64,000 nucleotides of DNA from NCBI GenBank assembly GCA_019323515.1, contig JAHWHG010000004.1, positions 1,859 through 65,858 on the forward strand, written 5' to 3'. This DNA is from Candidatus Woesearchaeota archaeon (GTDB taxonomy: Archaea; Nanobdellota; Nanobdellia; Woesearchaeales; JAHWHD01). Below the pieces are notes generated by a model. The model made no database searches. It saw nothing but the letters and a program-made list of their open reading frames with translations, and was not told where the DNA came from. The position numbers were made by a program, and so were the translations under genes. This document shows positions 1 through 52,027 of the stretch, one piece after another; position 1 is the first letter of the stretch, and each line of letters opens with the position of its first letter.

Positions 1-1545
1 GGAGCAATGACGATTGCTTCAGAAACCACTGCAGGAAATCCAGGTATAAGATTAGCTACTGGTTTATCTAATGAGAATTACTGGGACATGTATACATTTG
101 GAACTATAGCAAATAAAGGTTTGTTTATCAGATACAATGGCGATGACAAAATACAAATAACAAAAGAAGGGAATGTTGGAATAGGCATTACTAGCCCATG
201 GGTAAATAACGCAACACAAAAGCTTCATGTAGAAGGTAATGCAAATATTACTGGAGATCTTTCAGTAATAGGCAACATTACAATAGGCACTGGCACAATC
301 TTACTTGATGGTCAAAGGTCAAATATTGAACTATCTCCAGTGGATCCTGTAAAGATTGGAGAGGCGTTACTAAACAGTACAGCGTTGGAGGTTTTTGTTG
401 CAGGAAAATATGCATATGTTGGAACTTCAAATTCAAGTAAAGATGTTGAAATTTTTGATATTAGCAATCCTACAGATATTTCTATTGTAGGTTATGCAGA
501 CTTAACGAATAGTGTAAATGGTATTTATGTATTAAATAAGTACATGTACACTATTAGCAATGATCTTGGAGGGGATGATTTTGAGATATTTGATATCTCA
601 AATAAAAGCAATCCTGTAAAAGTGGCTGGTGTTGAGCTTGGTGCTAATGGTGATGAAATCTATGTTTCAGGGAGATATGCATATATTGGAACTGATGGAA
701 GTAATGAATTTAAGATATATGATATATCTGACCCAACAAACCCTGAACTGATAGGAACCGCAAATCCCGGAGATAATGTTAGAGGGCTTTATATCTCAGG
801 GAAGTATGCTTTTATTGGTTTTCAGGCTGGTGGGTCAACATTGATAAAGATATATGATATTTCAGACCCTACAAACCCTAAGCAAGTAGAATCCAACAAT
901 CAAGCATCTGGTACTGTAATTAATATGTATGTATCAGGCAATTATCTTTACACAATAAGTAGCTATAGTTCAAATAATTTACAGGTATGGGATATCTCAG
1001 ATATATCAAATATTGTGAATATTGGTAATGCAACAGCTGCAGATAATGCATATGGATTAGATGTGGCTGGGAAGTATGCTTATGTAACCAGTGGTTCAAC
1101 TGGGGATGATCTTGAGGTGTTTGACATCTCAGACCCTACAAATCCTACAAAAGTTGGAGGGGTTGAATTTGGAGGGAGTTCATATTCACAAACTATCAAA
1201 GTTGTAGGGAAATATGCATACATAGGGAATACATTGACAGGAGAATTAATGACATATGATATATCTGGTTCAGATTTACCAGCAGCAACTATTGGAACTG
1301 TCTCTGCAACAACTGCAGATGTATCTAATAATATGCATGTAGGGAATGATTTAGTTGTAGATAATGCACTTATTGTAGGCCAAGGTTTAATGGTTGATGG
1401 ACCAGCTTCATTAGGTATAAATGCTAGTTTAGTTGTTGATGAAGCTGGATTGATGAATTTAACCGGGAATCTCCATGTAGAAGGATGTATCAAATACAAT
1501 TGCTCACAGCCAACTGGATGTGTAACTTTAGGTGTTTGTATCTAA
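1..1545 (+). CDS. LVIVD-repeat beta-propeller surface protein (probably 5'-partial)
   Basis: ORF 7..1545 is in frame with nt 1-6 and has no upstream stop. About 9 iterations of GKYAY(V/I)G...(L/F)E(I/V)(F/Y)DISDPTNP match the LVIVD-repeat signature. The C-terminal tail is Cys-rich (GCIKYNCSQPTGCVTLGVCI). Confidence 0.75.
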   Translation, partial: GAMTIASETTAGNPGIRLATGLSNENYWDMYTFGTIANKGLFIRYNGDDKIQITKEGNVGIGITSPWVNNATQKLHVEGNANITGDLSVIGNITIGTGTILLDGQRSNIELSPVDPVKIGEALLNSTALEVFVAGKYAYVGTSNSSKDVEIFDISNPTDISIVGYADLTNSVNGIYVLNKYMYTISNDLGGDDFEIFDISNKSNPVKVAGVELGANGDEIYVSGRYAYIGTDGSNEFKIYDISDPTNPELIGTANPGDNVRGLYISGKYAFIGFQAGGSTLIKIYDISDPTNPKQVESNNQASGTVINMYVSGNYLYTISSYSSNNLQVWDISDISNIVNIGNATAADNAYGLDVAGKYAYVTSGSTGDDLEVFDISDPTNPTKVGGVEFGGSSYSQTIKVVGKYAYIGNTLTGELMTYDISGSDLPAATIGTVSATTADVSNNMHVGNDLVVDNALIVGQGLMVDGPASLGINASLVVDEAGLMNLTGNLHVEGCIKYNCSQPTGCVTLGVCI

Positions 1546-1686
1546 GAATTAAGGAATAAAAATTTTAATCAAAACTAGTTTCTTTTCTAAATTATTTTTT
1601 TAGTTAACGCTTAAAACTTTTGTACAGAAAAATAAGGGTTCACTATTGACAATTTATTTAAACTAGTAAAGATTATTAATCTTGCA

Positions 1687-2148
1687 ATGGAGTTTCCTAG
1701 TTTAGATGAAATCGTTGAAGACATTAAAGAATTACATTTACCTGAACATAGAACCATTGGAAAGAAAAGGGATAGTGAAACATGGGAAGAGAGTTTTGAC
1801 AGGCAATTTCTAGGGATAATTGAAGAGACATATAATAGGATAAAAATGAATTCTGAATTTTATATGATACCGCAAAAACCTTATGATGGGAAGTGCACAC
1901 ATACAAAGTCCTATATCTTACAGGTGCAAATGGCAAGAGAGAGGCATCTGCATGGGTTTGAGGATGATGCATTCTTTGCTGCAAGAGGTTGGGTTGTTAG
2001 AACTGTTTATTGCAGGATGTGTCCAGAGAATAAATTATGTAAATGGAACCCAAAGAAGGAACTTGAGAGTCATAAGCATTCTCGTAGTGCAGCACATTGT
2101 GAGGAGAAATTCTTCAAGGATCATCCAGAGTATTCATTTTCTGGGTAA
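1687..2148 (+). CDS. hypothetical protein (Cys/His-rich)
   Basis: 153-aa ORF with no recognisable family motif. CRMCPENKLCKW and HKHSRSAAHCEE could form a metal site. Confidence 0.45.
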   Translation: MEFPSLDEIVEDIKELHLPEHRTIGKKRDSETWEESFDRQFLGIIEETYNRIKMNSEFYMIPQKPYDGKCTHTKSYILQVQMARERHLHGFEDDAFFAARGWVVRTVYCRMCPENKLCKWNPKKELESHKHSRSAAHCEEKFFKDHPEYSFSG

Positions 2149-2283
2149 AAACATTAGATATTTATAGTAGTTCGCACAATATACATTGTATGTACCTTTA
2201 GTTATATGAAAATAAAGAGAAGTACAAAAAACGTATAATTTGGCTTGAAAAGGCCAGGCTTTTGAACAAAAAAGAGGCATGAA

Positions 2284-3093
2284 ATGAGCGACAGATTAAG
2301 GCAGTTGGAGACTGAACTTAAGCTTAGAGGTTTTAGTGAGAAGACCATCAGAAACTACAAACACTATAATAATGATTTTCTTAACTTCCTAGGAAAGAGT
2401 CCAAATGAAGTAGAGGAGTATGATGTAAAGGAGTACATAGCACATTTGATTTCTGATAAAAGTATGAAGCCTGCAACAGTTAACCTTGCAAGATGTGCAT
2501 TGAAGTTCTTTTATGTAGAGGTGCTTGAGAAAAACATATTTGGAAGGATTAAGACAGTCAAGGCAGAGAAGAAGATACCAACTGTATTGTCAAAAGATGA
2601 AGTGCAAAACATTTTAGCGGTGATAAAAAATAGTAGAGACAGGCTTATGGTTGAATTTATGTATTCTGCAGGGCTGAGGGTTTCTGAGGTAGTTGAGTTA
2701 GATGCAAGGAATCTTGACTTCAAAGAGAAGATTGGCACTGTAAAGGCTGGAAAAGGTAAGAAAGATAGACTGATAATCCTTAGTGATAAGTTGATTAAAG
2801 GATTACAGAGGCATATTGAAAGTGAAGGGGTAGAGGGATTAGTGTTTCCTGTGAGCAAGAGGTATGTGCAAAAGGTGGTTAGTAGCGCAGCTGAGAAGGC
2901 AGGGATAAAGAAAAGAGTGTTCTGCCATGCATTGAGGAGCAGCTTTGCAACACATTTGCTGGAAGCAGGAACAGATATAAGGATAATCCAAGAGCTGTTA
3001 GGACATGCAAATTTGGCAACCACAGAGCGCTATACCAAAGTAAGCAAGGAACAATTGAAGAAAGTAAGATCACCATTAGATGATTTGAGATAA
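2284..3093 (+). CDS. xerA: tyrosine recombinase, XerA/XerC/D-like integrase
   Basis: N-terminal SAM-like core-binding region (LRGFSEKTIRNYKHY...). The catalytic region carries RVSEV (Arg), HALRSSFATHLLEAGTDIRIIQELLGHANLATTERYTKV (H-x-x-R, H, Y) in canonical order. Confidence 0.85.
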   Translation: MSDRLRQLETELKLRGFSEKTIRNYKHYNNDFLNFLGKSPNEVEEYDVKEYIAHLISDKSMKPATVNLARCALKFFYVEVLEKNIFGRIKTVKAEKKIPTVLSKDEVQNILAVIKNSRDRLMVEFMYSAGLRVSEVVELDARNLDFKEKIGTVKAGKGKKDRLIILSDKLIKGLQRHIESEGVEGLVFPVSKRYVQKVVSSAAEKAGIKKRVFCHALRSSFATHLLEAGTDIRIIQELLGHANLATTERYTKVSKEQLKKVRSPLDDLR

Positions 3094-3144
3094 AACTTTT
3101 AATCAAAGATAAGAATTTGTTTGGCTAAAACATTTAAGAGAAGA

Positions 3145-3660
3145 TTAATCGTTTTCTACTTGTTCTGAAGAACCATTATCTATACCAACAACATTCTCTT
3201 TTGCCTGCACTTCCTTGAATTCTGAATCAAGAGATATAAGAGGAGCAGCATTGATATATTTTATAATAATAGGAATACCCTTATCAATCATATTTTGTAC
3301 ATAGGTTTTTGCAAGTGACTCTGATATGTTGAGTTCAACAGCTATCTGGGAGTATGAAAAAGGTTCTTCATGCGCATACAAACACTTGAAAACCTGTTTT
3401 TCATTGATTGTCAGAGGCTGAATCTTAACTGTAAAGGTCTTAGGAAGGGGTAGCTGCTGTAGCATCATCTGCATTTCTTCAATACGCTCACTAAGCTTGT
3501 CTATCTTAGAATCAAGGTCCAGGATAGCCTCATAATTCTCCTGGATCTCGTTAGTATTCTCGTTTATAGCGTTTAGGTGGTCCTCTAACTCCTCACGGAT
3601 TTTAGCAAAAGAATGCTTTATTTTCTTATTTACATTAGCAGCAAATTCTTTAATATTCAT
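3145..3660 (-). CDS. hypothetical coiled-coil protein with C-terminal winged-HTH-like region
   Basis: N-terminal heptad-rich segment (EELEDHLNAINENTNEIQENYEAILDLDSKIDKLSERIEEMQ). The C-terminal part (FSYSQIAVELNISESLAKTYVQNMIDKGIPII) looks like an HTH. Confidence 0.55.
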   Translation of the reverse strand: MNIKEFAANVNKKIKHSFAKIREELEDHLNAINENTNEIQENYEAILDLDSKIDKLSERIEEMQMMLQQLPLPKTFTVKIQPLTINEKQVFKCLYAHEEPFSYSQIAVELNISESLAKTYVQNMIDKGIPIIIKYINAAPLISLDSEFKEVQAKENVVGIDNGSSEQVEND

Positions 3661-3762
3661 ATATGGTTAGACAAAAGCCTATCTTAAATATTTTTCCAAT
3701 ATTGAATATCGAGAATAAAAATCAAAAGTTTTATAAACAATCGGGCGATTTATTTATATATT

Positions 3763-4473
3763 ATGGGGTGGCTTAAACCGAAACAGACACTTAGTATTGA
3801 TAAGTGGCATAGGTTTCAGTATATGCTTAAAGCCTCGTTTTCTCGACTTAGAAGCGACATAAATAACCTAGTTTCCTGGGTGCAGTATTTTCAGGGGAAG
3901 CATGAAGATGTAGATACAAGGCTATCAAGAATAGAGAATTATATGCATCTGCCACAGCAGGACATCAATAAGATCCATGCAAGAATAGGAGAACTTGAGA
4001 AATCTCACATTATGCCGAAGTATGAACTTGAAAAGGTAAATATGAGGATAGATAGGCTTGAGGAACATAATGAGAGGAAAATTACAAAGGATGATGTTGA
4101 AGTTATTGTTGGGAGGCATTCTGCGTTTGAGAATATGCTTGCAAAGATGCAGGAGATGGAGGCAAGGATTGCAAATATTGAGCTGAATAAAGCAACCCCA
4201 AAACAGAATTTAAGGGAAAAGATTGTTAGAAATATTACAAGGAATTCTAAGGAATATGTCAAGAATTTGATAAGAAATTTAATCCTTAAATATGAACGGA
4301 TTTCAGGGTTGCAGATGAAAGAGATGGTTGTTGATGAGCAAGGGCTTTGCTCAAAAAGTTCATTTTATAGGATCCTTCAAGAAGTTGAAGAAGAAGGACA
4401 AGTAGGGTTCTTGAGGGAAGGTAAAGAGAAGAAGTATTTTGCGAAGGCTGGAAAGATAAAGAGTTTTGAGTGA
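3763..4473 (+). CDS. hypothetical coiled-coil protein with C-terminal winged-HTH-like region
   Basis: Divergent from 3145..3660 and has the same architecture: long coiled coil, then GLCSKSSFYRILQEVEEEGQVGFLREGKEKKYF (wHTH-like). Confidence 0.55.
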   Translation: MGWLKPKQTLSIDKWHRFQYMLKASFSRLRSDINNLVSWVQYFQGKHEDVDTRLSRIENYMHLPQQDINKIHARIGELEKSHIMPKYELEKVNMRIDRLEEHNERKITKDDVEVIVGRHSAFENMLAKMQEMEARIANIELNKATPKQNLREKIVRNITRNSKEYVKNLIRNLILKYERISGLQMKEMVVDEQGLCSKSSFYRILQEVEEEGQVGFLREGKEKKYFAKAGKIKSFE

Positions 4474-4487
4474 GCTGATTTCTGCTA

Positions 4488-4823
4488 GTCCCAAGTAGGA
4501 CTGAGACTATTTTATCGACGACAAACATTTTGGGAATGGGACTGAGACTGGAAGGAGAGATTAACGAGGGAACGAAATTTGCGCGTAGCGCGCTCTGCGC
4601 ACGAACTATATTCTATCAGTCCTAAATAAGGCTATTGGGACTGTCCCAAGATGGGACTGAGACTGTTTTGGGAGTATTTTGGGAATATGAAAGAGGGTTT
4701 TGGAGAGCAGTTTCTGACTTAGAAGTGCAAACATAAAGTATAAATAGTTAGTCTTATTTGGGATTATTGTGAGACTGGGACTATACAGTCCCAGGACTGT
4801 TTGGGAATGGGACTAAGACTGAC
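4488..4823. repeat. array of GGGACT / AGTCCC short repeats (both orientations), with a 23-nt unit TTTGGGAATGGGACT(G/A)AGACTG present twice
   Basis: GGGACTGAGACTG occurs at 4538-4550 and 4653-4665, and GGGACTAAGACTG at 4809-4821. Palindromes GGGACTGTCCC (4637-4647) and GGGACTATACAGTCCC (4777-4792) are present, with further GGACT copies at 4498, 4617 (rc) and 4794. A GC island lies at 4581-4603. Confidence 0.8.
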
Positions 4824-5090
4824 AAAACAGAGGGTAAAAGAGCGATCGCAACCAGACAAAAGGGCGCTTGGAGATGGATGAAAAAAGAGCCGAAAAAAAC
4901 AGAAGCCAAGACCCGTCAATCACAATGAACACCAAAAGTGTGCCAGCAAAAAACAGCAGGAAGTGAGGCATAAAAAGATTGCACAGGAGCAGGGAATCCT
5001 TGTGTAGGTGGGCTTTACAGGGATTAGATATGAGTTTATAGACGGTGAAATAGCAAAATCTGTGAGTGATTAGAGTGAAGAGAGTAGGGC

Positions 5091-5747
5091 CATATATGAA
5101 AATAAATGAGAAGTGAGGGTTGTAATATACGTTTAAGGTTAGTACAAAGAGGCTCCACATATATGAAAATAATTAACAGAGATGATTAATGTGCAGAATA
5201 TGAGGGATACAGAGACTGGGAAGGCTGAATTCAGAGAAACACAAGATAAATTGAGTAGGCCATATATGAAAATAATTAAAAAGTGAGAGATAAAATAGGG
5301 GATTTAAGGGCTAAAATCATGTTTTGTGCGTGTATAAGCATGAAAATGAGTGAGAACATAGTATCTGGTTCTGTTTAGAGGTGCTGAAACAATTGAATTC
5401 GAGGGTTTGAGGGCTTTATTACGCAAATCTGCGATATAGAATACAGGTGGTTAGTATAGAAAGAACAGTAAATGAGCATAGAGGTATATGAAAATAATTA
5501 GAAAGTGAGTGTTAAATTAGAGTGTAAACATATATAAACAAGTGAAATATGTGATTATTTAGCGTTATACGTTAATATAGCGATTGTGAGGGCTATACAG
5601 GGATTTATGAGAATATACGTTAAAATGGCTTTAAATGAGCGTTTAAAGCGGTTTTAGAGGTTACGTGGCTTTGTAATATGAGGCTTACATATGAGGTTAT
5701 ATTGAGATCATAGTGACTGAATATTGAAAATAATCTAAAAGTGAGGA
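5091..5747 (+). repeat. dispersed direct repeats of (C)ATATATGAAAATAAT(T)A.AAAGTGAG (5 copies plus degenerate copies)
   Basis: Copies at 5091-5119, 5158-5181, 5261-5290, 5484-5511 and 5720-5747; a partial copy at 5338-5357; a related copy at 2203-2224 upstream of the recombinase. The last copy ends about 17 nt before the ATG at 5764, so the motif may be a BRE/TATA-type promoter. Confidence 0.75.
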
Positions 5748-5763
5748 TAAAGAGGAAAAGAAA

Positions 5764-6420
5764 ATGCCAGGCATAGGAAAGATACATTCAAAATCTGCAT
5801 TAGCAATAGTGTTATCGAGGCTGAAAGTGTTCAAGAGTCCTAAAGTAAGCATAGAGCAATATCCTACAGATTCAGAGATTGCAGCTGCAGTGTTATGGGA
5901 TGCAGGGTTGAGAGGAGATATATACGGGAAAGTAATAGTTGATCTTGGCTGCGGTACAGGGATATTAGGCATAGGAGCAGGTTTGTTAGGCGCTAAGAGA
6001 GTGATATTTATCGACGCTGACAAGGAAGCACTTGAGAGGTGTGAGGAGAATATCAAGTATGTGCAGGAGAAAGAAGGGACTGAATTTGAGTATATTGTAA
6101 AAAAATCTAAAGTGAGTGATATCATTGATGGAAAGGAATTAGGTGCTGAGGTAGTGATACAGAACCCTCCGTTCGGGGTGAAGGATAAGCATGCAGACAA
6201 GGAGTTTTTAGAGAAAGCGACAGAGATTGCAGATATAGTTTATAGTTTTCATAAGGCCTCTACAAAGAAGTTTGTGCAGAAGTTCAGCGACGATAAATTG
6301 TTCGATGTTACACATTACAGCGAGTTCATGTTTCCCCTTAAATCGACGATGATGTTTCACAAGAAGAAAATACACAGGATAAAAGTAGGTGTGTGGAGAC
6401 TTGAGAGGAGAGCAAACTAG
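5764..6420 (+). CDS. class I SAM-dependent methyltransferase, COG2263/METTL5-like (NPPF motif)
   Basis: SAM-binding motif I VIVDLGCGTGILGIGAGLLGA, acidic loop IFIDAD, and motif IV VIQNPPFG, which is typical of N6-adenine/rRNA methylases. Confidence 0.75.
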   Translation: MPGIGKIHSKSALAIVLSRLKVFKSPKVSIEQYPTDSEIAAAVLWDAGLRGDIYGKVIVDLGCGTGILGIGAGLLGAKRVIFIDADKEALERCEENIKYVQEKEGTEFEYIVKKSKVSDIIDGKELGAEVVIQNPPFGVKDKHADKEFLEKATEIADIVYSFHKASTKKFVQKFSDDKLFDVTHYSEFMFPLKSTMMFHKKKIHRIKVGVWRLERRAN

Positions 6421-6482
6421 TTGTACAGTTTAATAGGAAAGTTTTATAAATAAGGTCTAGATTAGAGGATAAAGGTGGTTTC

Positions 6483-6758
6483 ATGGAACTAAAAGTTATT
6501 GAAGAGGGTAAGAACAGACTAATAGTCGAGATACAAGGAGAAGATCATACATTCTGCAATGCTTTAAAGAAAGAGCTTTGGAATGATAGTCATGTCAAAG
6601 CAGCTGGATATAACATAAGCCATCCTTTAGTAGGAGAGCCAAGGATTATTGTAGAGACAGACGGTAAAGTTGATCCTAAGAAGGCTTTGGCTGAAGCTGC
6701 AAAGAGACTGAAAAAGACAATAGAGAAGTTCTCAAAAGCCTTTGATAAGATGAAATGA
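6483..6758 (+). CDS. rpoL: DNA-directed RNA polymerase subunit L (Rpo11)
   Basis: 91 aa. The segment GEDHTFCNALKKELWNDSHVKAAGYNISHPLVGEPRIIVETDG is the Rpo11/RpoL signature. The SD-like sequence AGGTGG lies 6 nt upstream. Confidence 0.88.
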   Translation: MELKVIEEGKNRLIVEIQGEDHTFCNALKKELWNDSHVKAAGYNISHPLVGEPRIIVETDGKVDPKKALAEAAKRLKKTIEKFSKAFDKMK

Positions 6759-7300
6759 AAGGGGAACTTCTCATCAGTTTAGCAAGGGATGCTATTAAAG
6801 CACATTTCTCAAATGAAAAGTTAAAGATTAGCGAGGAGCTTAAAAGTGAGTTTTCTGATAAGCAAGGGGTGTTTGTCACACTTACTATAGATGGTGAGTT
6901 GCGTGGATGCATTGGGTTTATTGAGGCAATATATCCTTTGTATGAATCTGTGATAAAAGCAGCTGAATCTGCTGCGTTCTCTGACCCTAGGTTTAAGCCG
7001 TTGAATGAGGCTGAGTTCAAGAGATTGAAGGTTGAAGTGTCTGTGTTGACAAAGCCTGAACTTATTGCAGTGGGGAAGCCAGAGGACTATGTAAAAAAGA
7101 TTAAAGTTGGCAGAGACGGACTAATAGTTGAGAAAGGTATGTACAAGGGTTTATTGCTGCCGCAGGTAGCTACAGAATATAACTGGGATTCTAAAGAGTT
7201 TTTAGAGTACACGTGCCAGAAAGCTGGTTTGAATAAGGATGCATGGAAGAAGCCAGGAGTTAAGGTTTATAGGTTTGAATGCGAGATTTTTCATGAGTAA
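6755..7300 (+). CDS. AMMECR1 domain protein
   Basis: GVFVTLTIDGELRGCIGFIEAIYPLYESVIKAAESAAFSDPRFKPL matches the AMMECR1 core (GxFVT...LRGCIG). It is ATGA-coupled to rpoL. Confidence 0.85.
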   Translation: MKGELLISLARDAIKAHFSNEKLKISEELKSEFSDKQGVFVTLTIDGELRGCIGFIEAIYPLYESVIKAAESAAFSDPRFKPLNEAEFKRLKVEVSVLTKPELIAVGKPEDYVKKIKVGRDGLIVEKGMYKGLLLPQVATEYNWDSKEFLEYTCQKAGLNKDAWKKPGVKVYRFECEIFHE

Positions 7301-7386
7301 ATTCTTAGGATATAGGCCTTGTAAAGCCGAAAAACTTAAATATCTGCTAGTGCCTAACTGGAGTTTATTGGTTTAAGGGGATTAAG

Positions 7387-7929
7387 ATGTTTGTACGTGT
7401 GAAGAAGATAAAAGGGAATGAGTACTTGTATGTTGTTGAGAATAGTTGGAAGAATGGAAAGGTCAAGCAGAAGGTCAGGAAATATATTGGCAGGGTGTAT
7501 CCGCTGAAGAGAGTTAAAGACGAGGACTTTTATTCTTTTCATAATATTGAAGATATCAACAAGTATCTTTCAAAAAGTGCAAAGGATATTGTCAAGGATA
7601 TACTTAAGTTTGAGCTAGGAGTGCATGGGTTTGAGTTCAAGCCTGGGAAGGGTAAAGAGGATATTATGAAGAAGGAGGAACTTATTGTTGACCTCTCACG
7701 GATGAGAGTGAAAGGTTATAGCAATGATATTGCGCTCAGACTTAACAAGGCTGGATATATTTATGGTGAAAGTATAAAAGAAATCATTGAGTTCAAGGCT
7801 GGACGTGATAAAGAGAAGAGCGGGCTTGAGCTGGCTAAGTTATTTGCAGGGATGGGGATTGAGCCTGACAAGAACATTTTTATAAGATTAATATTGGGTA
7901 AGGATTTTAAGGTTGATGAATATGAATGA
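7387..7929 (+). CDS. hypothetical protein; N-terminus resembles the DNA-binding N-terminus of IS1634/IS4-type transposases
   Basis: MFVRVKKIKGNEYLYVVENSWKNGKVKQKVRKYIGR resembles the conserved N-terminal beta-hairpin motif of IS1634-family transposases. No DDE region is present (only 180 aa). Confidence 0.5.
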   Translation: MFVRVKKIKGNEYLYVVENSWKNGKVKQKVRKYIGRVYPLKRVKDEDFYSFHNIEDINKYLSKSAKDIVKDILKFELGVHGFEFKPGKGKEDIMKKEELIVDLSRMRVKGYSNDIALRLNKAGYIYGESIKEIIEFKAGRDKEKSGLELAKLFAGMGIEPDKNIFIRLILGKDFKVDEYE

Positions 7930-8626
7930 TAAAAAGGTTCCAAATCATGTTGGAATTATAATGGACGGAAACAGAAGGTTTGCAAAGAGGTTGATGCTTG
8001 AGCCATGGAAAGGGCATGAGTATGGTGCAGAGGTGCTTGAGAAGGTACTTAACTGGTGTAATGAGCTCGGTGTCAAGGAGTTGACGCTTTACACTTTCTC
8101 AGTTGAAAACTTTAACAGGCCTAAGAAGGAGTTTGATTACCTGATGCAGCTGTTCAAGAAAGAGTTTGAGAAGCTTATGAATGATGACAGGGTTGACAAG
8201 AGAAGGATTAGGATTAGGTTCATAGGACGACTTAAGATGTTTGATGAAGAGTTGCAGAATCTGATGAAGAAGGTTATGAAAAGGACAAAGGATTATGATG
8301 ATTTCAGGTTGAACTTTGCAGTTGCTTATGGAGGAAGGCAGGAGATTGTTGATGGTATAAGGAAAGTGGTTGAGCTTGCAAAGAAAGGGATGATAAATGA
8401 AGAAGATGTTGATGAGGAGAATTTTGGGAATTATCTATACCTTAAGTCACAGCCTGAGCTTGTCATAAGGACTGGTGGTGAGAAAAGGTTGAGCAATTTC
8501 TTAATGTGGCAGTCAGCGTACTCTGAGCTGATGTTTATTGATAACATGTGGCCAGAGTTCAGTAAAGAGGAGTTTGCAAGGTGTATTGAGGAATATGGTA
8601 ATAGAGAGAGAAGGTTTGGAAGATAA
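7913..8626 (+). CDS. uppS: cis-prenyltransferase (undecaprenyl/di-trans,poly-cis-polyprenyl diphosphate synthase)
   Basis: HVGIIMDGNRRFAKR, YTFSVENFNRP and IRTGGEKRLSNFLMWQSAYSEL are canonical UPPS motifs. Confidence 0.9.
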   Translation: MMNMNDKKVPNHVGIIMDGNRRFAKRLMLEPWKGHEYGAEVLEKVLNWCNELGVKELTLYTFSVENFNRPKKEFDYLMQLFKKEFEKLMNDDRVDKRRIRIRFIGRLKMFDEELQNLMKKVMKRTKDYDDFRLNFAVAYGGRQEIVDGIRKVVELAKKGMINEEDVDEENFGNYLYLKSQPELVIRTGGEKRLSNFLMWQSAYSELMFIDNMWPEFSKEEFARCIEEYGNRERRFGR

Positions 8627-8627
8627 C

Positions 8628-9245
8628 ATGGATGAAGAAAGGTATGAGGACCTTGAAAAAGAGGATGATAAGAAGTTTAAAGGGCCGATAAAGGTAATAC
8701 TAGGAGTTTTCTTGATATTTATGATTGTGTTGATGGCTGTGCCTTATTATGGGTTAAAGGATAACCCTGAGCCAGAGGTTGTGATTGATTATACTTTGGA
8801 AGCAGATAATTCTATTGGAAGGTTTGATACGATAGATGATGTGTATGATTATGAGATATCTAAAGAGTTAAGAGAGGCTGCTTCAAAGATTGCAACAACT
8901 GGTTGCTATTCAGGGATAAAGATGTGTCAGATGAAGGCATTGTATTATTTTGTGCGGGATAATGTCAAGTATGTGAATGATCCAAAAAGCAGGGAGTATT
9001 TCCAGACACCTGAATCAACGCTTTATGTGAAGTCAGGTGATTGTGATGATAAGAGCATATTGCTGGTTGGGCTTTTGAAAGCTATAGGAGTGGATGCTAA
9101 AGTTAAGACAGTGCCAGGCCATGCTTATGTTCAGGTAAGTTATAATGATGCGCCAAAGAAGTATCTTGATGATGAAGGACTGATTAATCTTGACTCAACA
9201 TGCAGTTATTGTAAGTTTGGGGAGCTGCCATTAGAGTATAGCTAA
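8628..9245 (+). CDS. membrane-anchored transglutaminase-like cysteine protease domain protein
   Basis: The start is moved to the ATG at 8628, directly after the uppS stop; the tracked start at 8538 lies inside uppS. There is one TM segment (VILGVFLIFMIVLMAV). The core SGDCDDKSILLVGLLKAIGVDAKV...GHAYVQV fits the transglutaminase-like Cys/His pattern. Confidence 0.65.
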   Translation: MDEERYEDLEKEDDKKFKGPIKVILGVFLIFMIVLMAVPYYGLKDNPEPEVVIDYTLEADNSIGRFDTIDDVYDYEISKELREAASKIATTGCYSGIKMCQMKALYYFVRDNVKYVNDPKSREYFQTPESTLYVKSGDCDDKSILLVGLLKAIGVDAKVKTVPGHAYVQVSYNDAPKKYLDDEGLINLDSTCSYCKFGELPLEYS

Positions 9246-51931: not shown

Positions 51932-52027
51932 GCCTCTGTAGCATAGTAGCTATTGCGATGGCCTTGTATGCGTTATAATAACGTAGAAGTAAGCCATAGG
52001 TCGGGGGTGCAAATCCCCCCAGAGGCT
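51932..52027 (+). tRNA. tRNA-Thr(UGU) with 23-nt canonical (37/38) intron
   Basis: Acceptor GCCTCTG/CAGAGGC; anticodon stem ATGGC/GCCAT; loop CTTGTA|intron 51969-51991|A; T-arm GGGGG-TGCAAAT-CCCCC; discriminator T. The D-loop lacks GG and the T-loop reads TGC rather than TTC, which is unusual. Confidence 0.75.

What the first reader, a model, noticed from the sequence alone, without database searches (positions are those of the whole stretch)
4474..4830. Dense bidirectional GGGACT repeat array with GC island next to recombinase and wHTH genes - iteron/ORB-like protein-binding platform?
At least ten (G)GGACT or AGTCC(C) copies occur within about 340 bp. They include two 23-nt units TTTGGGAATGGGACT(G/A)AGACTG (4528-4550, 4799-4821) and two palindromes (GGGACTGTCCC; GGGACT-ATAC-AGTCCC). 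An isolated GC-rich block GCGCGTAGCGCGCTCTGCGC (4581-4600) sits in otherwise AT-rich DNA.

No convincing ORF covers the region. It lies directly downstream of two divergent coiled-coil/wHTH genes and 1.4 kb from a Xer-type recombinase.

Inference: this could be a replication origin (chromosomal or from an integrated plasmid or virus), a partition or centromere-like site, or a recombination site array.
Basis: partly seen in the sequence, partly recalled or inferred. Interest (0 to 1): 0.6.

Follow-up and report, generated by a model that had tools for sequence, protein, structure and literature searches.

The report
Conserved repeat platform beside archaeal xerA
The repeat cluster is real and is this genome's version of a one-per-genome array of evenly spaced DNA repeats that Woesearchaeota archaea keep next to an uncharacterised DNA-binding protein gene and the chromosome-resolving XerA/dif site; it is most likely that protein's docking platform and is not the replication origin.

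Summary
There are 18 forward and 4 reverse (G/A)(G/A)GANT hexamers in 4487-4821. GGGACT occurs 7 times against 0.07 expected (P = 2e-12). Clusters this dense occur nowhere else in the 1.12-Mb assembly.

The origin reading fails. In eight relatives the canonical oriC, with classic inverted ORB boxes around an AT-rich stretch, lies upstream of an orc1-polD operon. The array is on another contig, or 328-359 kb from orc1.

The array is nevertheless deeply conserved. All 13 Woesearchaeales relatives examined have the order (recombinase) / dif-like repeat / coiled-coil winged-helix gene B / coiled-coil winged-helix gene A / repeat array / methyltransferase-rpoL. In most, the array is 2-3 blocks of 4-6 TGGGAMT units at an exact 11-bp period, usually around a TTTATCGWCGATAAA-like element.

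A strict 3 x 11-bp pattern hits 23 of 121 order genomes, one such array locus each (one genome also has an unrelated tandem repeat). The reversed control gives 0 of 121. In 22 of the 23, gene A lies within 37-238 bp.

Best reading (0.6): a cooperative binding platform for protein A, possibly with B. Its architecture resembles the plasmid centromeres parC/ParR and tubC/TubR, and it sits beside dif. Its cellular role (autoregulation, chromosome landmark or Xer accessory) is inferred only. I found no published description.

The parts
4487..4563 (+). Repeat block 1. It reads AGTCCC(-), AGGACT-GAGACT, then the palindrome-like core TTTATCGACGACAAA (4511-4525), then GGGAAT-GGGACT-GAGACT (part of the 22-nt unit 4529-4550) and GAGATT.
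   Evidence: This is one of only three places in the assembly with 4 or more units per 60 bp.
4511..4525 (.). Central element TTTATCGACGACAAA, a 15-bp palindrome (TTTATCG-W-CGATAAA) with one mismatch.
   Evidence: sites with 1 mismatch or fewer number 3 in the genome, against 0 in shuffles. Related elements sit between repeat blocks in 11 of 14 loci. A perfect copy lies 270 bp upstream of ftsZ in this genome and 390 bp upstream in G020.
4581..4600 (.). GC-rich island GCGCGTAGCGCGCTCTGCGC, which can form a hairpin or cruciform (GCGCG-TAG-CGCGC), between blocks 1 and 2.
   Evidence: Comparable GC islands occur at the same place in the same-family relative G001 (GCGCGCTTTCGCGCGC) but not in the wider order.
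4637..4697 (+). Repeat block 2. It reads the GGGACTGTCCC palindrome, GGGACT-GAGACT, then GGGAGT and GGGAAT at 11-bp steps.
4760..4821 (+). Repeat block 3. It reads GGGATT, GAGACT-GGGACT, AGTCCC(-), AGGACT and GGGAAT-GGGACT-AAGACT (22-nt unit 4800-4821).
3763..4473 (+). Gene A, 236 aa. It has a long N-terminal coiled coil and a C-terminal winged helix with an invariant S-K-S-x-x-Y-R recognition helix. It is the presumed array-binding protein.
   Evidence: AF2 model, with pLDDT about 90 in the winged helix. Foldseek returns only generic winged-helix hits. No Pfam or NCBIfam family matches. There are 687 homologues with E <= 0.001; every name shown among the best 120 is 'hypothetical' apart from one evidently spurious JGI label, and the organisms named are Woesearchaeota/Nanoarchaeota. 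The gene lies within 37-238 bp of the array in 22 of 23 array-positive genomes.
3145..3660 (-). Gene B, 171 aa. It has one long N-terminal helix and a MarR/ArsR-type winged helix. It is always paired with A.
   Evidence: AF2 model with pLDDT 86. Foldseek hits are ZitR, CzrA and MepR. HTH_11 and GerE match weakly. It is paired with A in all 14 loci.
3127..3155 (.). dif-like inverted repeat AAAACATTTAA-GAGAAGA-TTAATCGTTTT (11-7-11, TAA-N7-TTA), between the xerA stop and the B stop.
   Evidence: It is the best match in the whole assembly to AAAACNTTTAA-N6-8-TTAAANGTTTT, at 19 of 20. The same consensus scores 16/20 or more at the B stop or within 185 bp downstream of it in 10 of 14 loci, this window included. 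TAA-N6-8-TTA is the most conserved feature of archaeal dif (PMC11840125).
2284..3093 (+). XerA tyrosine recombinase.
   Evidence: NCBIfam NF040815 recomb_XerA_Arch scores 235 bits against a cut-off of 220. Pfam Phage_integrase scores 8e-39.
5091..5745 (+). Second repeat family in the same non-coding tract. Five one-directional TATATGAAAATAA units start near 5091, 5158, 5261, 5483 and 5720; four of them carry the AAGTGAG box (not the one at 5158). The last sits 19 nt before the methyltransferase start codon.
   Evidence: AAAGTGAGRGTT units recur in the equivalent tract of every relative examined. They are rare elsewhere in the genome.

Best explanation
The 4487-4821 cluster is this genome's rearranged copy of a single-copy repeat array that is conserved across Woesearchaeales.

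**Ancestral form.** In most relatives the array is 2-3 blocks of 4-6 direct TGGGAMT units at an exact 11-bp period, one helical turn. The blocks usually flank a TTTATCGWCGATAAA-like element. The array begins about 40-240 bp from the start codon of gene A.

**Proposed mechanism.** The array is the docking platform on which coiled-coil dimers of winged-helix protein A, possibly with partner B, bind side by side along one face of the DNA. This would build a large nucleoprotein complex resembling ParR on parC or TubR on tubC.

**Context.** The complex sits in a conserved landmark locus: recombinase (XerA in this genome) / dif-like site / B / A / array / rpoL operon.

**Shown:**
- The array is unique in each genome.
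- It is conserved and phased.
- It is tightly linked to gene A.
- It is not oriC.

**Inferred:**
- That A is the binder.
- That binding is cooperative.
- That the complex autoregulates A and B where the array abuts A's promoter.
- That it has a chromosome-level role linked to dif, such as marking, insulating or controlling the dimer-resolution region.
For: **Uniqueness**
- Clusters of 4 or more units per 60 bp occur only here in 1.12 Mb.
- GGGACTRAGACTG occurs only here.

**Conservation**
- All 13 relatives' loci have TGGGA/GGGACT clusters in the same intergenic slot between gene A and the methyltransferase-rpoL genes. Enrichment ranges from P = 4e-2 to 1e-16 and is below 1e-3 in 13 of the 14 loci, this window included.

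**Phasing**
- Exact 11-bp ladders of 4-6 units occur in L021, L022, L024, L025, L029 and L030.

**Order-wide single-copy status**
- TGGGA-N6-TGGGA-N6-TGGGA hits 23 of 121 genomes, each from a different family, with one such array locus each. G017 has one extra hit, an apparently unrelated tandem repeat.
- The reversed control hits 0 of 121.

**Linkage to gene A**
- 22 of the 23 have gene A 37-238 bp away, median about 85 bp, mostly on A's 5' side.
- Among the 41 closest genomes, strict arrays are enriched in A-positive genomes: 6 of 14 against 1 of 27, Fisher P = 0.004.

**The proteins**
- A and B are coiled-coil plus winged-helix proteins.
- A's recognition helix is invariant, matching the invariant GGGA core.

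**Analogous architecture**
- parC has two 5-fold iteron sets bound separately by ParR (PMC2241845).
- tubC has blocks of direct repeats upstream of tubR and both represses and segregates (PMC6009700).

**Link to dif**
- XerA passes its equivalog cut-off, and a dif-like inverted repeat lies beside B.
- In T. kodakarensis, dif sits in a 1.9-kb intergenic region. A filament-forming wHTH protein (TrmBL2) bound there makes an SMC boundary (PMC11840125).
Against: - No binding data exist. A, B or another protein could be the binder.
- In this genome and its family, gene A is flipped, so the array lies 14 bp after A's stop and not in its promoter. The A-B divergent promoter (3661-3762) has no units, so autoregulation cannot be the whole story here.
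- Here the units are irregular, with 6-bp tandems and inverted copies. That fits one-face cooperative binding less well than the 11-bp ladders of relatives.
- No ParA, ParM or TubZ-type motor gene lies in the conserved neighbourhood.
- 17 of 41 relatives have no detectable A at E <= 0.001, and most of those have XerA. The module is therefore not indispensable for Xer function.
- The dif-like site is itself only predicted. It does not lie at a skew switch in this genome.
Confidence: 0.6

Rival explanations
1. The array is an ordinary transcriptional operator array. A and/or B are plain regulators, and the repeats only tune the divergent promoters of A(-B) and of the methyltransferase-rpoL-uppS cluster. 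There is no higher-order or chromosome-level role.
For: - In most relatives the first unit lies 10-20 bp beyond a TATA-like box of gene A.
- The proteins look like MarR/ArsR-type winged-helix regulators.
- The tract lies between two divergent gene sets.
- The palindrome also occurs upstream of ftsZ in two genomes, suggesting a small regulon.
Against: - 10-20 phased units in 2-3 blocks far exceed what dimeric operators need.
- The array persists in lineages where gene A is flipped and the array is no longer in its promoter.
- There is only one array locus per genome, and no dispersed sites for the TGGGA unit.
- The array is persistently linked to a recombinase and a dif-like site.
Confidence: 0.2
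2. The array is accessory or architectural DNA for XerA recombination at the neighbouring dif-like site. A and B bound to the array would impose directionality or timing on dimer resolution, replacing the missing FtsK as PepA/ArgR accessory sequences do at cer/psi, or would insulate dif as an SMC boundary.
For: - The A/B/array module sits next to XerA in G000, G001, G002, G017, G018, G019 and G020.
- It sits next to catalytic-domain-only XerA paralogues in G011, G015, G025 and G040, and next to a serine recombinase in G003.
- A dif-like inverted repeat lies directly after gene B in most loci.
- There is precedent for a dif-flanking protein-bound region in T. kodakarensis, and for dif upstream of a xerA-containing operon in haloarchaea (PMC11840125).
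Against: - The array is about 1.3 kb from the dif-like core, separated by two genes. cer/psi accessory sequences abut the core.
- P. abyssi XerA recombines dif without partners in vitro (PMC2958812).
- Many relatives have XerA without A.
- The locus is not at a terminus-type skew switch in this genome.
Confidence: 0.12
3. The array is a second, Orc1-independent replication origin of iteron type, fired by the winged-helix proteins A and B. This would be comparable to the WhiP-dependent oriC3 of Sulfolobus or to plasmid iteron origins.
For: - Direct phased repeats lie next to winged-helix genes.
- AT-rich tracts follow the array in some relatives (L018, L020).
- The locus is single-copy.
- The window's contig has monotonically positive skew from its start, 6 kb left of the array, to its end.
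Against: - Canonical ORB/DUE origins exist upstream of orc1-polD in relatives.
- A and B each have one winged helix and no Rep_3, Cdt1 or Orc features.
- There is no conserved AT-rich unwinding element; in this window the space between blocks holds a GC island.
- Skew is positive on both sides of the array.
- G018 shows no usable skew signal.
Confidence: 0.05
4. The repeats belong to a non-coding RNA gene or to the scar of an integrated plasmid or virus.
For: - Predicted folding is stronger than for shuffles: z = -3.8 on the plus strand and -4.3 on the minus strand.
- A recombinase gene is nearby.
Against: - The folding signal is equal on both strands and comes from inverted repeat copies. Relatives with purely direct repeats lack it.
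- There is no Rfam hit even at E <= 1.
- The locus is syntenic with housekeeping genes across an entire order.
- The recombinase is the XerA equivalog.
Confidence: 0.03

Closest known systems
parC/ParR centromere of plasmid R1 (type II partition)
   Same: Both have short direct repeats at an 11-bp period (own knowledge), arranged in two separate blocks of about five units around a central core (PMC2241845). Both lie upstream of the binding-protein gene, and the complex doubles as an autorepressor (own knowledge).
   Different: ParR is a small ribbon-helix-helix protein, whereas A is a 236-aa coiled-coil winged-helix protein. No ParM-like motor gene is linked. This array is chromosomal, archaeal and beside xerA/dif. 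In this genome the array is irregular and lies downstream of gene A.
tubC/TubR centromere (type III partition; pBtoxis, phage c-st)
   Same: The binding protein uses a winged helix (own knowledge; TubR is among the weak, non-significant Foldseek hits for A). The centromere is a discontinuous set of direct-repeat blocks upstream of the gene, spans up to more than 350 bp, mixes two iteron types, and forms rings or filaments that also cover the promoter (PMC6009700).
   Different: TubR is about 10 kDa and has no coiled coil. Its partner TubZ is encoded in the operon, whereas no tubulin or actin-like gene is linked here; ftsZ is elsewhere. The structural similarity is generic winged helix only (E = 0.06-0.12).
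dif-flanking boundary region of Thermococcus kodakarensis bound by TrmBL2 (PMC11840125)
   Same: Both are large gene-free tracts containing or adjoining dif. Both are (or are proposed to be) occupied by a winged-helix, filament-forming protein, and each marks one special place on the chromosome. In haloarchaea the dif-like site lies upstream of an operon containing a xerA homologue, a linkage also seen here.
   Different: TrmBL2 is an abundant genome-wide nucleoid protein with no discrete repeat array. Here the repeat is locus-specific and the proteins are not TrmB-family (no Pfam hit). An SMC boundary has not been tested.
Archaeal oriC with ORB elements
   Same: Both are repeated protein-binding sites in a long intergenic region next to winged-helix protein genes.
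   Different: The ORB dyad plus G-string, the AT-rich DUE and the adjacency to orc1 are all absent here. They are present at another locus in relatives.

Membership tests
Archaeal oriC (ORB/mini-ORB origin) | Lies next to an orc1/cdc6 gene | tested here: not met
   The only orc1 in the assembly is at C1:3-1166, whereas the array is at C2:6345-6695. In G018 the array locus is 328 kb from orc1, and in G099 it is 359 kb away. In all the other genomes checked where orc1 was found, the two are on different contigs.
Archaeal oriC (ORB/mini-ORB origin) | Inverted ORB boxes (TTCCA-N-TGGAAA-type dyad plus G-string) flanking an AT-rich unwinding element | tested here: not met
   The array units are GGGAMT/GAGACT hexamers, and the space between blocks holds a GC island. 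Genuine ORBs and an AT-rich core with a TTTCTATATAGAAAA-like element are seen upstream of orc1-polD in most of L051-L058.
Archaeal oriC (ORB/mini-ORB origin) | Strand-composition skew changes sign at the site | tested here: not met
   GC skew is positive in most 1-kb bins across window 1-9000, near zero at 3001-4000 where gene B lies on the minus strand. Cumulative skew rises along essentially all 210 kb of contig C2. Only 6.3 kb is available to the left, so a switch beyond the contig end cannot be excluded.
Iteron-type plasmid replicon | A Rep initiator (Rep_3 / WH1-WH2 or similar) encoded beside the iterons | tested here: not met
   A and B have no Pfam or NCBIfam Rep match. Each AF2 model has one winged helix after a coiled coil.
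Plasmid-type centromere (parC/ParR, tubC/TubR, parS/ParB) | Blocks of phased direct repeats adjoining the gene of the centromere-binding protein | tested here: met
   Gene A lies 37-238 bp from the array in 22 of 23 array-positive genomes, and 11-bp ladders occur in 2-3 blocks. In this window the array starts 14 bp after A's stop codon.
Plasmid-type centromere (parC/ParR, tubC/TubR, parS/ParB) | A cognate motor NTPase (ParA, ParM, TubZ) in the same operon | tested here: not met
   Window neighbours are an LVIVD protein, a 153-aa Cys-rich ORF, XerA, a methyltransferase, RpoL, AMMECR1 and UppS. In relatives, the ORFs within +-6 kb were inspected by sequence only, without a family search, and none looked like an NTPase of these families.
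Plasmid-type centromere (parC/ParR, tubC/TubR, parS/ParB) | The protein binds the repeats and mediates segregation | not testable with these tools
   This needs EMSA, ChIP and genetics.
XerA/dif dimer-resolution site | An imperfect inverted repeat of 11-bp arms with a 6-8-bp spacer and TAA-N-TTA | tested here: not met
   No conserved candidate lies inside the array or in the equivalent tracts of relatives. A good candidate lies outside the finding, at 3127-3155.
XerA/dif dimer-resolution site | A cognate XerA recombinase is present | tested here: met
   NF040815 scores 235.1 bits against a cut-off of 220 for window 2284-3093.
TrmBL2-type dif boundary element | Bound by a TrmB-family nucleoid protein and stalls SMC | tested here: inconclusive
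   A and B are not TrmB-family by Pfam. SMC stalling cannot be tested in silico.

The most novel reading that the evidence does not exclude
Woesearchaeota, and perhaps other DPANN archaea, may possess a previously unrecognised chromosomal landmark. Two lineage-specific coiled-coil winged-helix proteins would assemble a parC/tubC-like superstructure on a single-copy, helically phased repeat array beside dif. This structure would act as a chromosomal centromere or domain boundary, or as the FtsK-independent control device for XerA dimer resolution and its coupling to division. The same central palindrome upstream of ftsZ in two genomes hints at such coupling.
Probability: 0.22. Interest if true: 0.8.

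Novelty: new variant of a known kind. Interest (0 to 1): 0.6.

Why it matters
How archaea without ParABS or FtsK position, segregate and resolve their chromosomes is largely unknown, and nothing is known for DPANN archaea.

This locus is a good experimental entry point:
- It is a single-copy, sequence-defined array with helical phasing.
- It is tied to two uncharacterised DNA-binding proteins.
- It sits next to the predicted dif site and is kept across an order-level radiation.
- Two small soluble proteins and a 350-bp DNA fragment are all that is needed to test binding.

The result also gives a practical warning. Iteron-like arrays next to winged-helix genes in these genomes should not be annotated as origins, because the real oriC (ORB boxes upstream of orc1-polD) is easy to recognise.

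Tried and rejected
- **GC skew of the complete relative G018.** I sampled 20 x 20 kb to see whether the locus coincides with a skew turning point. The skew is weak and noisy, so it is uninformative.
- **Known RNA families.** Rfam gave nothing in the tract at gathering thresholds or at E <= 1. ARAGORN found no tRNA in the window.
- **RNA structure.** Folding z-scores are significant but equal on both strands and explained by inverted repeat copies. I rejected them as RNA evidence.
- **A dif site inside the array.** No conserved TAA-N6-8-TTA inverted repeat lies in the tract in any of the 14 loci.
- **A palindrome regulon.** The exact TTATCGWCGATAA is not clearly enriched order-wide: 13 sites in 10 of 41 genomes, against 9 control sites in 7 genomes. 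Only the two ftsZ-upstream copies stand out. My ftsZ-upstream scan did not correct for locus orientation on minus-strand hits, so it undercounts.
- **AAAGTGAG as a Shine-Dalgarno or generic promoter element.** Rejected, because there are only 37 copies genome-wide and they are clustered here.
- **Sequence and fold searches for A and B.** These returned only coiled-coil noise and generic winged-helix regulators.
- **Integrated mobile element.** Rejected on order-wide synteny with housekeeping genes and the XerA equivalog score.
Full report
**1. Observation**

- 18 forward and 4 reverse RRGANT hexamers lie between 4487 and 4820. They include 7 exact GGGACT/AGTCCC.
- Two 22-nt units TTTGGGAATGGGACTRAGACTG lie at 4529-4550 and 4800-4821, with a 73% third copy at 4644-4665.
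- The palindromes are GGGACTGTCCC (4637-4647) and GGGACT-ATAC-AGTCCC (4777-4792).
- The GC block is at 4581-4600.

The cluster is far from chance.
- GGGACT is not over-represented in the window as a whole: 20 found against 15.5 expected.
- However, 7 copies fall in 357 bp where 0.07 are expected (P = 2e-12).
- In the whole 1.124-Mb assembly, GGGACTRAGACTG occurs only here.
- Windows with 4 or more units per 60 bp occur only at three sub-blocks: window 4487-4563, 4637-4697 and 4771-4837. Block-shuffled genomes gave 0-1 such cluster.

**2. Organism and context**

The window is contig C2:1859-65858 of a 36% GC, 20-contig archaeal MAG estimated to be 76% complete. Source names of homologues place it in Woesearchaeota/Nanoarchaeota, that is DPANN.

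The genes around the finding are as follows.

| Window coordinates | Strand | Gene |
|---|---|---|
| 7-1545 | + | LVIVD beta-propeller protein |
| 1687-2148 | + | 153-aa ORF |
| 2284-3093 | + | XerA (NF040815, 235 bits against cut-off 220) |
| 3145-3660 | - | gene B |
| 3763-4473 | + | gene A |
| 4474-5763 | . | 1.29-kb gene-free tract containing the finding |
| 5764-6420 | + | class-I methyltransferase, followed by rpoL, AMMECR1, a 180-aa ORF and uppS |

**3. It is not the replication origin**
- The only orc1/cdc6 in the assembly lies at the very start of contig C1.
- In eight relatives orc1 heads an orc1-polD(DP1)-polD(DP2) operon. In seven of them a 380-700-bp upstream region precedes it; in G034 it is 128 bp. 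Most of these regions carry textbook inverted ORB boxes, for example agTTCCAtagGAAAtgatGGGGtggg in G018. The boxes flank a very AT-rich stretch with a conserved TTTCTATATAGAAAA-like element.
- TGGGA/GGGACT units are not enriched there.
- The array locus is 328 kb from orc1 in the closed 1.30-Mb genome G018. It is 359 kb away in G099. In all the other genomes checked where orc1 was found, it is on a different contig.
- This genome has an unusually strong, contig-long GC skew: C1 and C2 rise monotonically and C5 falls. The skew is positive on both sides of the array. Only 6.3 kb of contig exists to the left of the array.
- G018's skew is too weak to use.

**4. What it is: a conserved, phased, single-copy array**

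A BLAST of the 357 bp against 40 relatives gave short hits that lay next to the orthologue of gene A in five genomes. I fetched +-6 kb around 13 orthologues and found one conserved layout. In order, it is:
- a recombinase
- gene B
- gene A
- a non-coding tract rich in TGGGA/GGGACT
- the methyltransferase, rpoL, AMMECR1, a 180-aa ORF and uppS

The first 350 bp of the tract on the A side are enriched for TGGGA in every locus. P ranges from 4e-2 to 1e-16 and is below 1e-3 in 13 of 14 loci.

In most relatives the array is strikingly regular. Blocks of 4-6 direct TGGGA(A/C)T units sit at exactly 11-bp steps.
- In L021 the units start at 45/56/67/78, then 124/135/146/157/168, then 206/217.
- L022, L024, L025, L029 and L030 have similar ladders.
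- The units are all in one orientation, and a TTTATCGWCGATAAA-like element usually lies between blocks.

In this genome's own family (G000, G001, G002) and in three other lineages the layout differs. Gene A is inverted relative to the array, so the array follows A's stop codon. The array is also derived, with tandem hexamers at 6-bp steps (GGGAAT-GGGACT-GAGACT), inverted copies and, in G000 and G001, GC-rich hairpin islands.

Across the order, the strict pattern TGGGA-N6-TGGGA-N6-TGGGA hits 23 of 121 genomes. Each is from a different family and has one such array locus; G017 has one extra hit, an apparently unrelated tandem repeat. The reversed control pattern hits none of the 121.

Gene A lies 37-238 bp from the array (median about 85 bp) in 22 of those 23 genomes, nearly always with the array on its 5' side. 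Among the 41 nearest genomes, strict arrays occur in 6 of 14 clearly A-positive genomes and in 1 of 27 others (Fisher P = 0.004).

**5. The proteins**

*Protein A (236 aa)*
- It has no Pfam or NCBIfam family.
- There are 687 homologues with E <= 0.001. Among the best 120 listed, every name given is 'hypothetical' apart from one evidently spurious JGI label, and the organisms named are Woesearchaeota/Nanoarchaeota.
- AlphaFold predicts long N-terminal helices followed by a confident winged helix, with pLDDT about 90.
- Foldseek gives no significant match (none with E <= 0.001). The weak hits are generic winged-helix domains: Hop2, ArsR/SmtB, TubR and MarR.
- The putative recognition helix (C)SKSSFYR is invariant across 14 orthologues, in parallel with the invariant GGGA core of the repeat.

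*Protein B (171 aa)*
- It is one 67-residue helix followed by a MarR/ArsR-like winged helix, with pLDDT 86.
- Its HTH is more variable than A's.

**6. The rest of the locus**

*The dif-like site.* Notes from earlier agents on sister genomes prompted me to look for dif beside xerA rather than inside the array.
- The array tract has no conserved TAA-N6-8-TTA inverted repeat.
- AAAACATTTAA-GAGAAGA-TTAATCGTTTT at 3127-3155, between the stops of xerA and B, is the best match in the whole assembly to AAAACNTTTAA-N7-TTAAANGTTTT, at 19 of 20.
- That consensus scores 16/20 or more at the B stop or within 185 bp downstream of it in 10 of 14 loci, this window included.
- TAA-N6-8-TTA within an 11-bp-arm inverted repeat is the hallmark of archaeal dif (PMC11840125, PMC2958812).

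*The recombinase next to A and B varies*.

| Neighbouring recombinase | Genomes |
|---|---|
| Full-length XerA | seven genomes, including this one |
| Catalytic-domain-only XerA paralogue of about 215 aa | G011, G015, G025, G040 |
| Serine recombinase | G003 |

*The second repeat family.* The distal part of the tract (5091-5745) carries five one-directional TATATGAAAATAA units. Four of them have the AAGTGAG box.
- AAAGTGAGRGTT units are conserved in every relative.
- They are rare elsewhere in the genome.

**7. Mechanism**

The best-supported model is a cooperative nucleoprotein platform. Coiled-coil dimers of A, perhaps with B, would occupy units spaced one helical turn apart, in 2-3 blocks.

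The closest known architectures are plasmid centromeres.
- R1 parC has two sets of five iterons, bound separately by ParR (PMC2241845).
- tubC has discontinuous blocks of direct repeats upstream of tubR. TubR bound there both represses the operon and couples to TubZ (PMC6009700).

In the majority layout the array abuts A's TATA box, which makes autoregulation likely.

Several features suggest more than promoter control:
- persistence of the array where A is flipped, with no units in the A-B promoter
- single-copy status
- constant linkage to a recombinase and a dif-like site

Possible wider roles are a chromosomal landmark, an insulator comparable to the TrmBL2-bound dif region of T. kodakarensis (PMC11840125), or a Xer accessory device. 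None of these roles has been tested, and no motor NTPase is linked.

**8. Novelty**

Full-text searches for Woesearchaeota replication origins and for archaeal XerA/dif found no description of this array or of these proteins. Earlier agents of this scan met the same locus in sister genomes and reached compatible readings. Those notes are leads, not independent evidence.

I class the finding as a new variant of a known kind: a phased centromere- or operator-like repeat array with a cognate winged-helix protein. Its function is unresolved.

Noticed in passing
window 3127-3155 (and a weaker copy at 3092-3120): A dif-like inverted repeat, AAAACATTTAA-N7-TTAATCGTTTT, lies between the convergent stops of xerA and gene B. 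It is the best match in the whole assembly. The same consensus scores 16/20 or more at or just after gene B's stop in 10 of 14 loci, this window included. In G019 and G020 two copies bracket xerA or a small cassette.
   Followed up: partly
window 5091-5745: Five one-directional TATATGAAAATAA units, four of them with the AAGTGAG box, fill the rest of the gene-free tract. AAAGTGAGRGTT units are conserved in the same tract of every relative examined. They are not a generic promoter or Shine-Dalgarno motif, with only 37 AAAGTGAG genome-wide. One full unit also points into the 3' end of ftsZ (C6:11440-11470).
   Followed up: partly
genome contig C6:12802-12816 (outside the window); L059/L099 in G020: A perfect TTTATCGACGATAAA palindrome, the central element of the array, lies 270 bp upstream of ftsZ in this genome and 390 bp upstream of ftsZ in G020. 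Many other relatives instead have a related TTTTTTGGCGAAAAA box 180-270 bp upstream of ftsZ.
   Followed up: partly
L051-L058 (relatives); genome contig C1:1-1166: The canonical oriC of the order has inverted ORB boxes, an AT-rich core and a TTTCTATATAGAAAA-like palindrome upstream of an orc1-polD small-polD large operon. In this assembly orc1 is cut by the start of contig C1, so its oriC is not assembled.
   Followed up: yes
whole contigs C1, C2, C5 (the window is part of C2): There is an unusually strong, bacterial-like monotonic GC skew over whole contigs of 166-232 kb, with local skew of 0.2-0.5. This implies very strong gene co-orientation and probably a single origin.
   Followed up: partly
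L024 (G011), L020 (G015), L030 (G025), L027 (G040); L026 (G003): In four families the recombinase beside the A/B pair is a catalytic-domain-only XerA paralogue of about 215 aa (MxKKFNEYYLNW...). In at least two of them (G011, G015) a full-length XerA lies elsewhere. In G003 a serine recombinase takes that position.
   Followed up: no
window 51932-52027: A 96-nt tRNA is found by Rfam (55.8 bits) but missed by ARAGORN. It probably contains an intron.
   Followed up: no
L018-L030, 2-4 kb from the locus: A PAC2-family-like gene of about 237 aa (M..KL.KKPKNPIIIEGFPGFGLVGTI) is conserved a few kb beyond the recombinase in 10 of 13 relatives. It is absent from the corresponding side of this window, which ends in an LVIVD surface-protein gene and the contig edge.
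   Followed up: no
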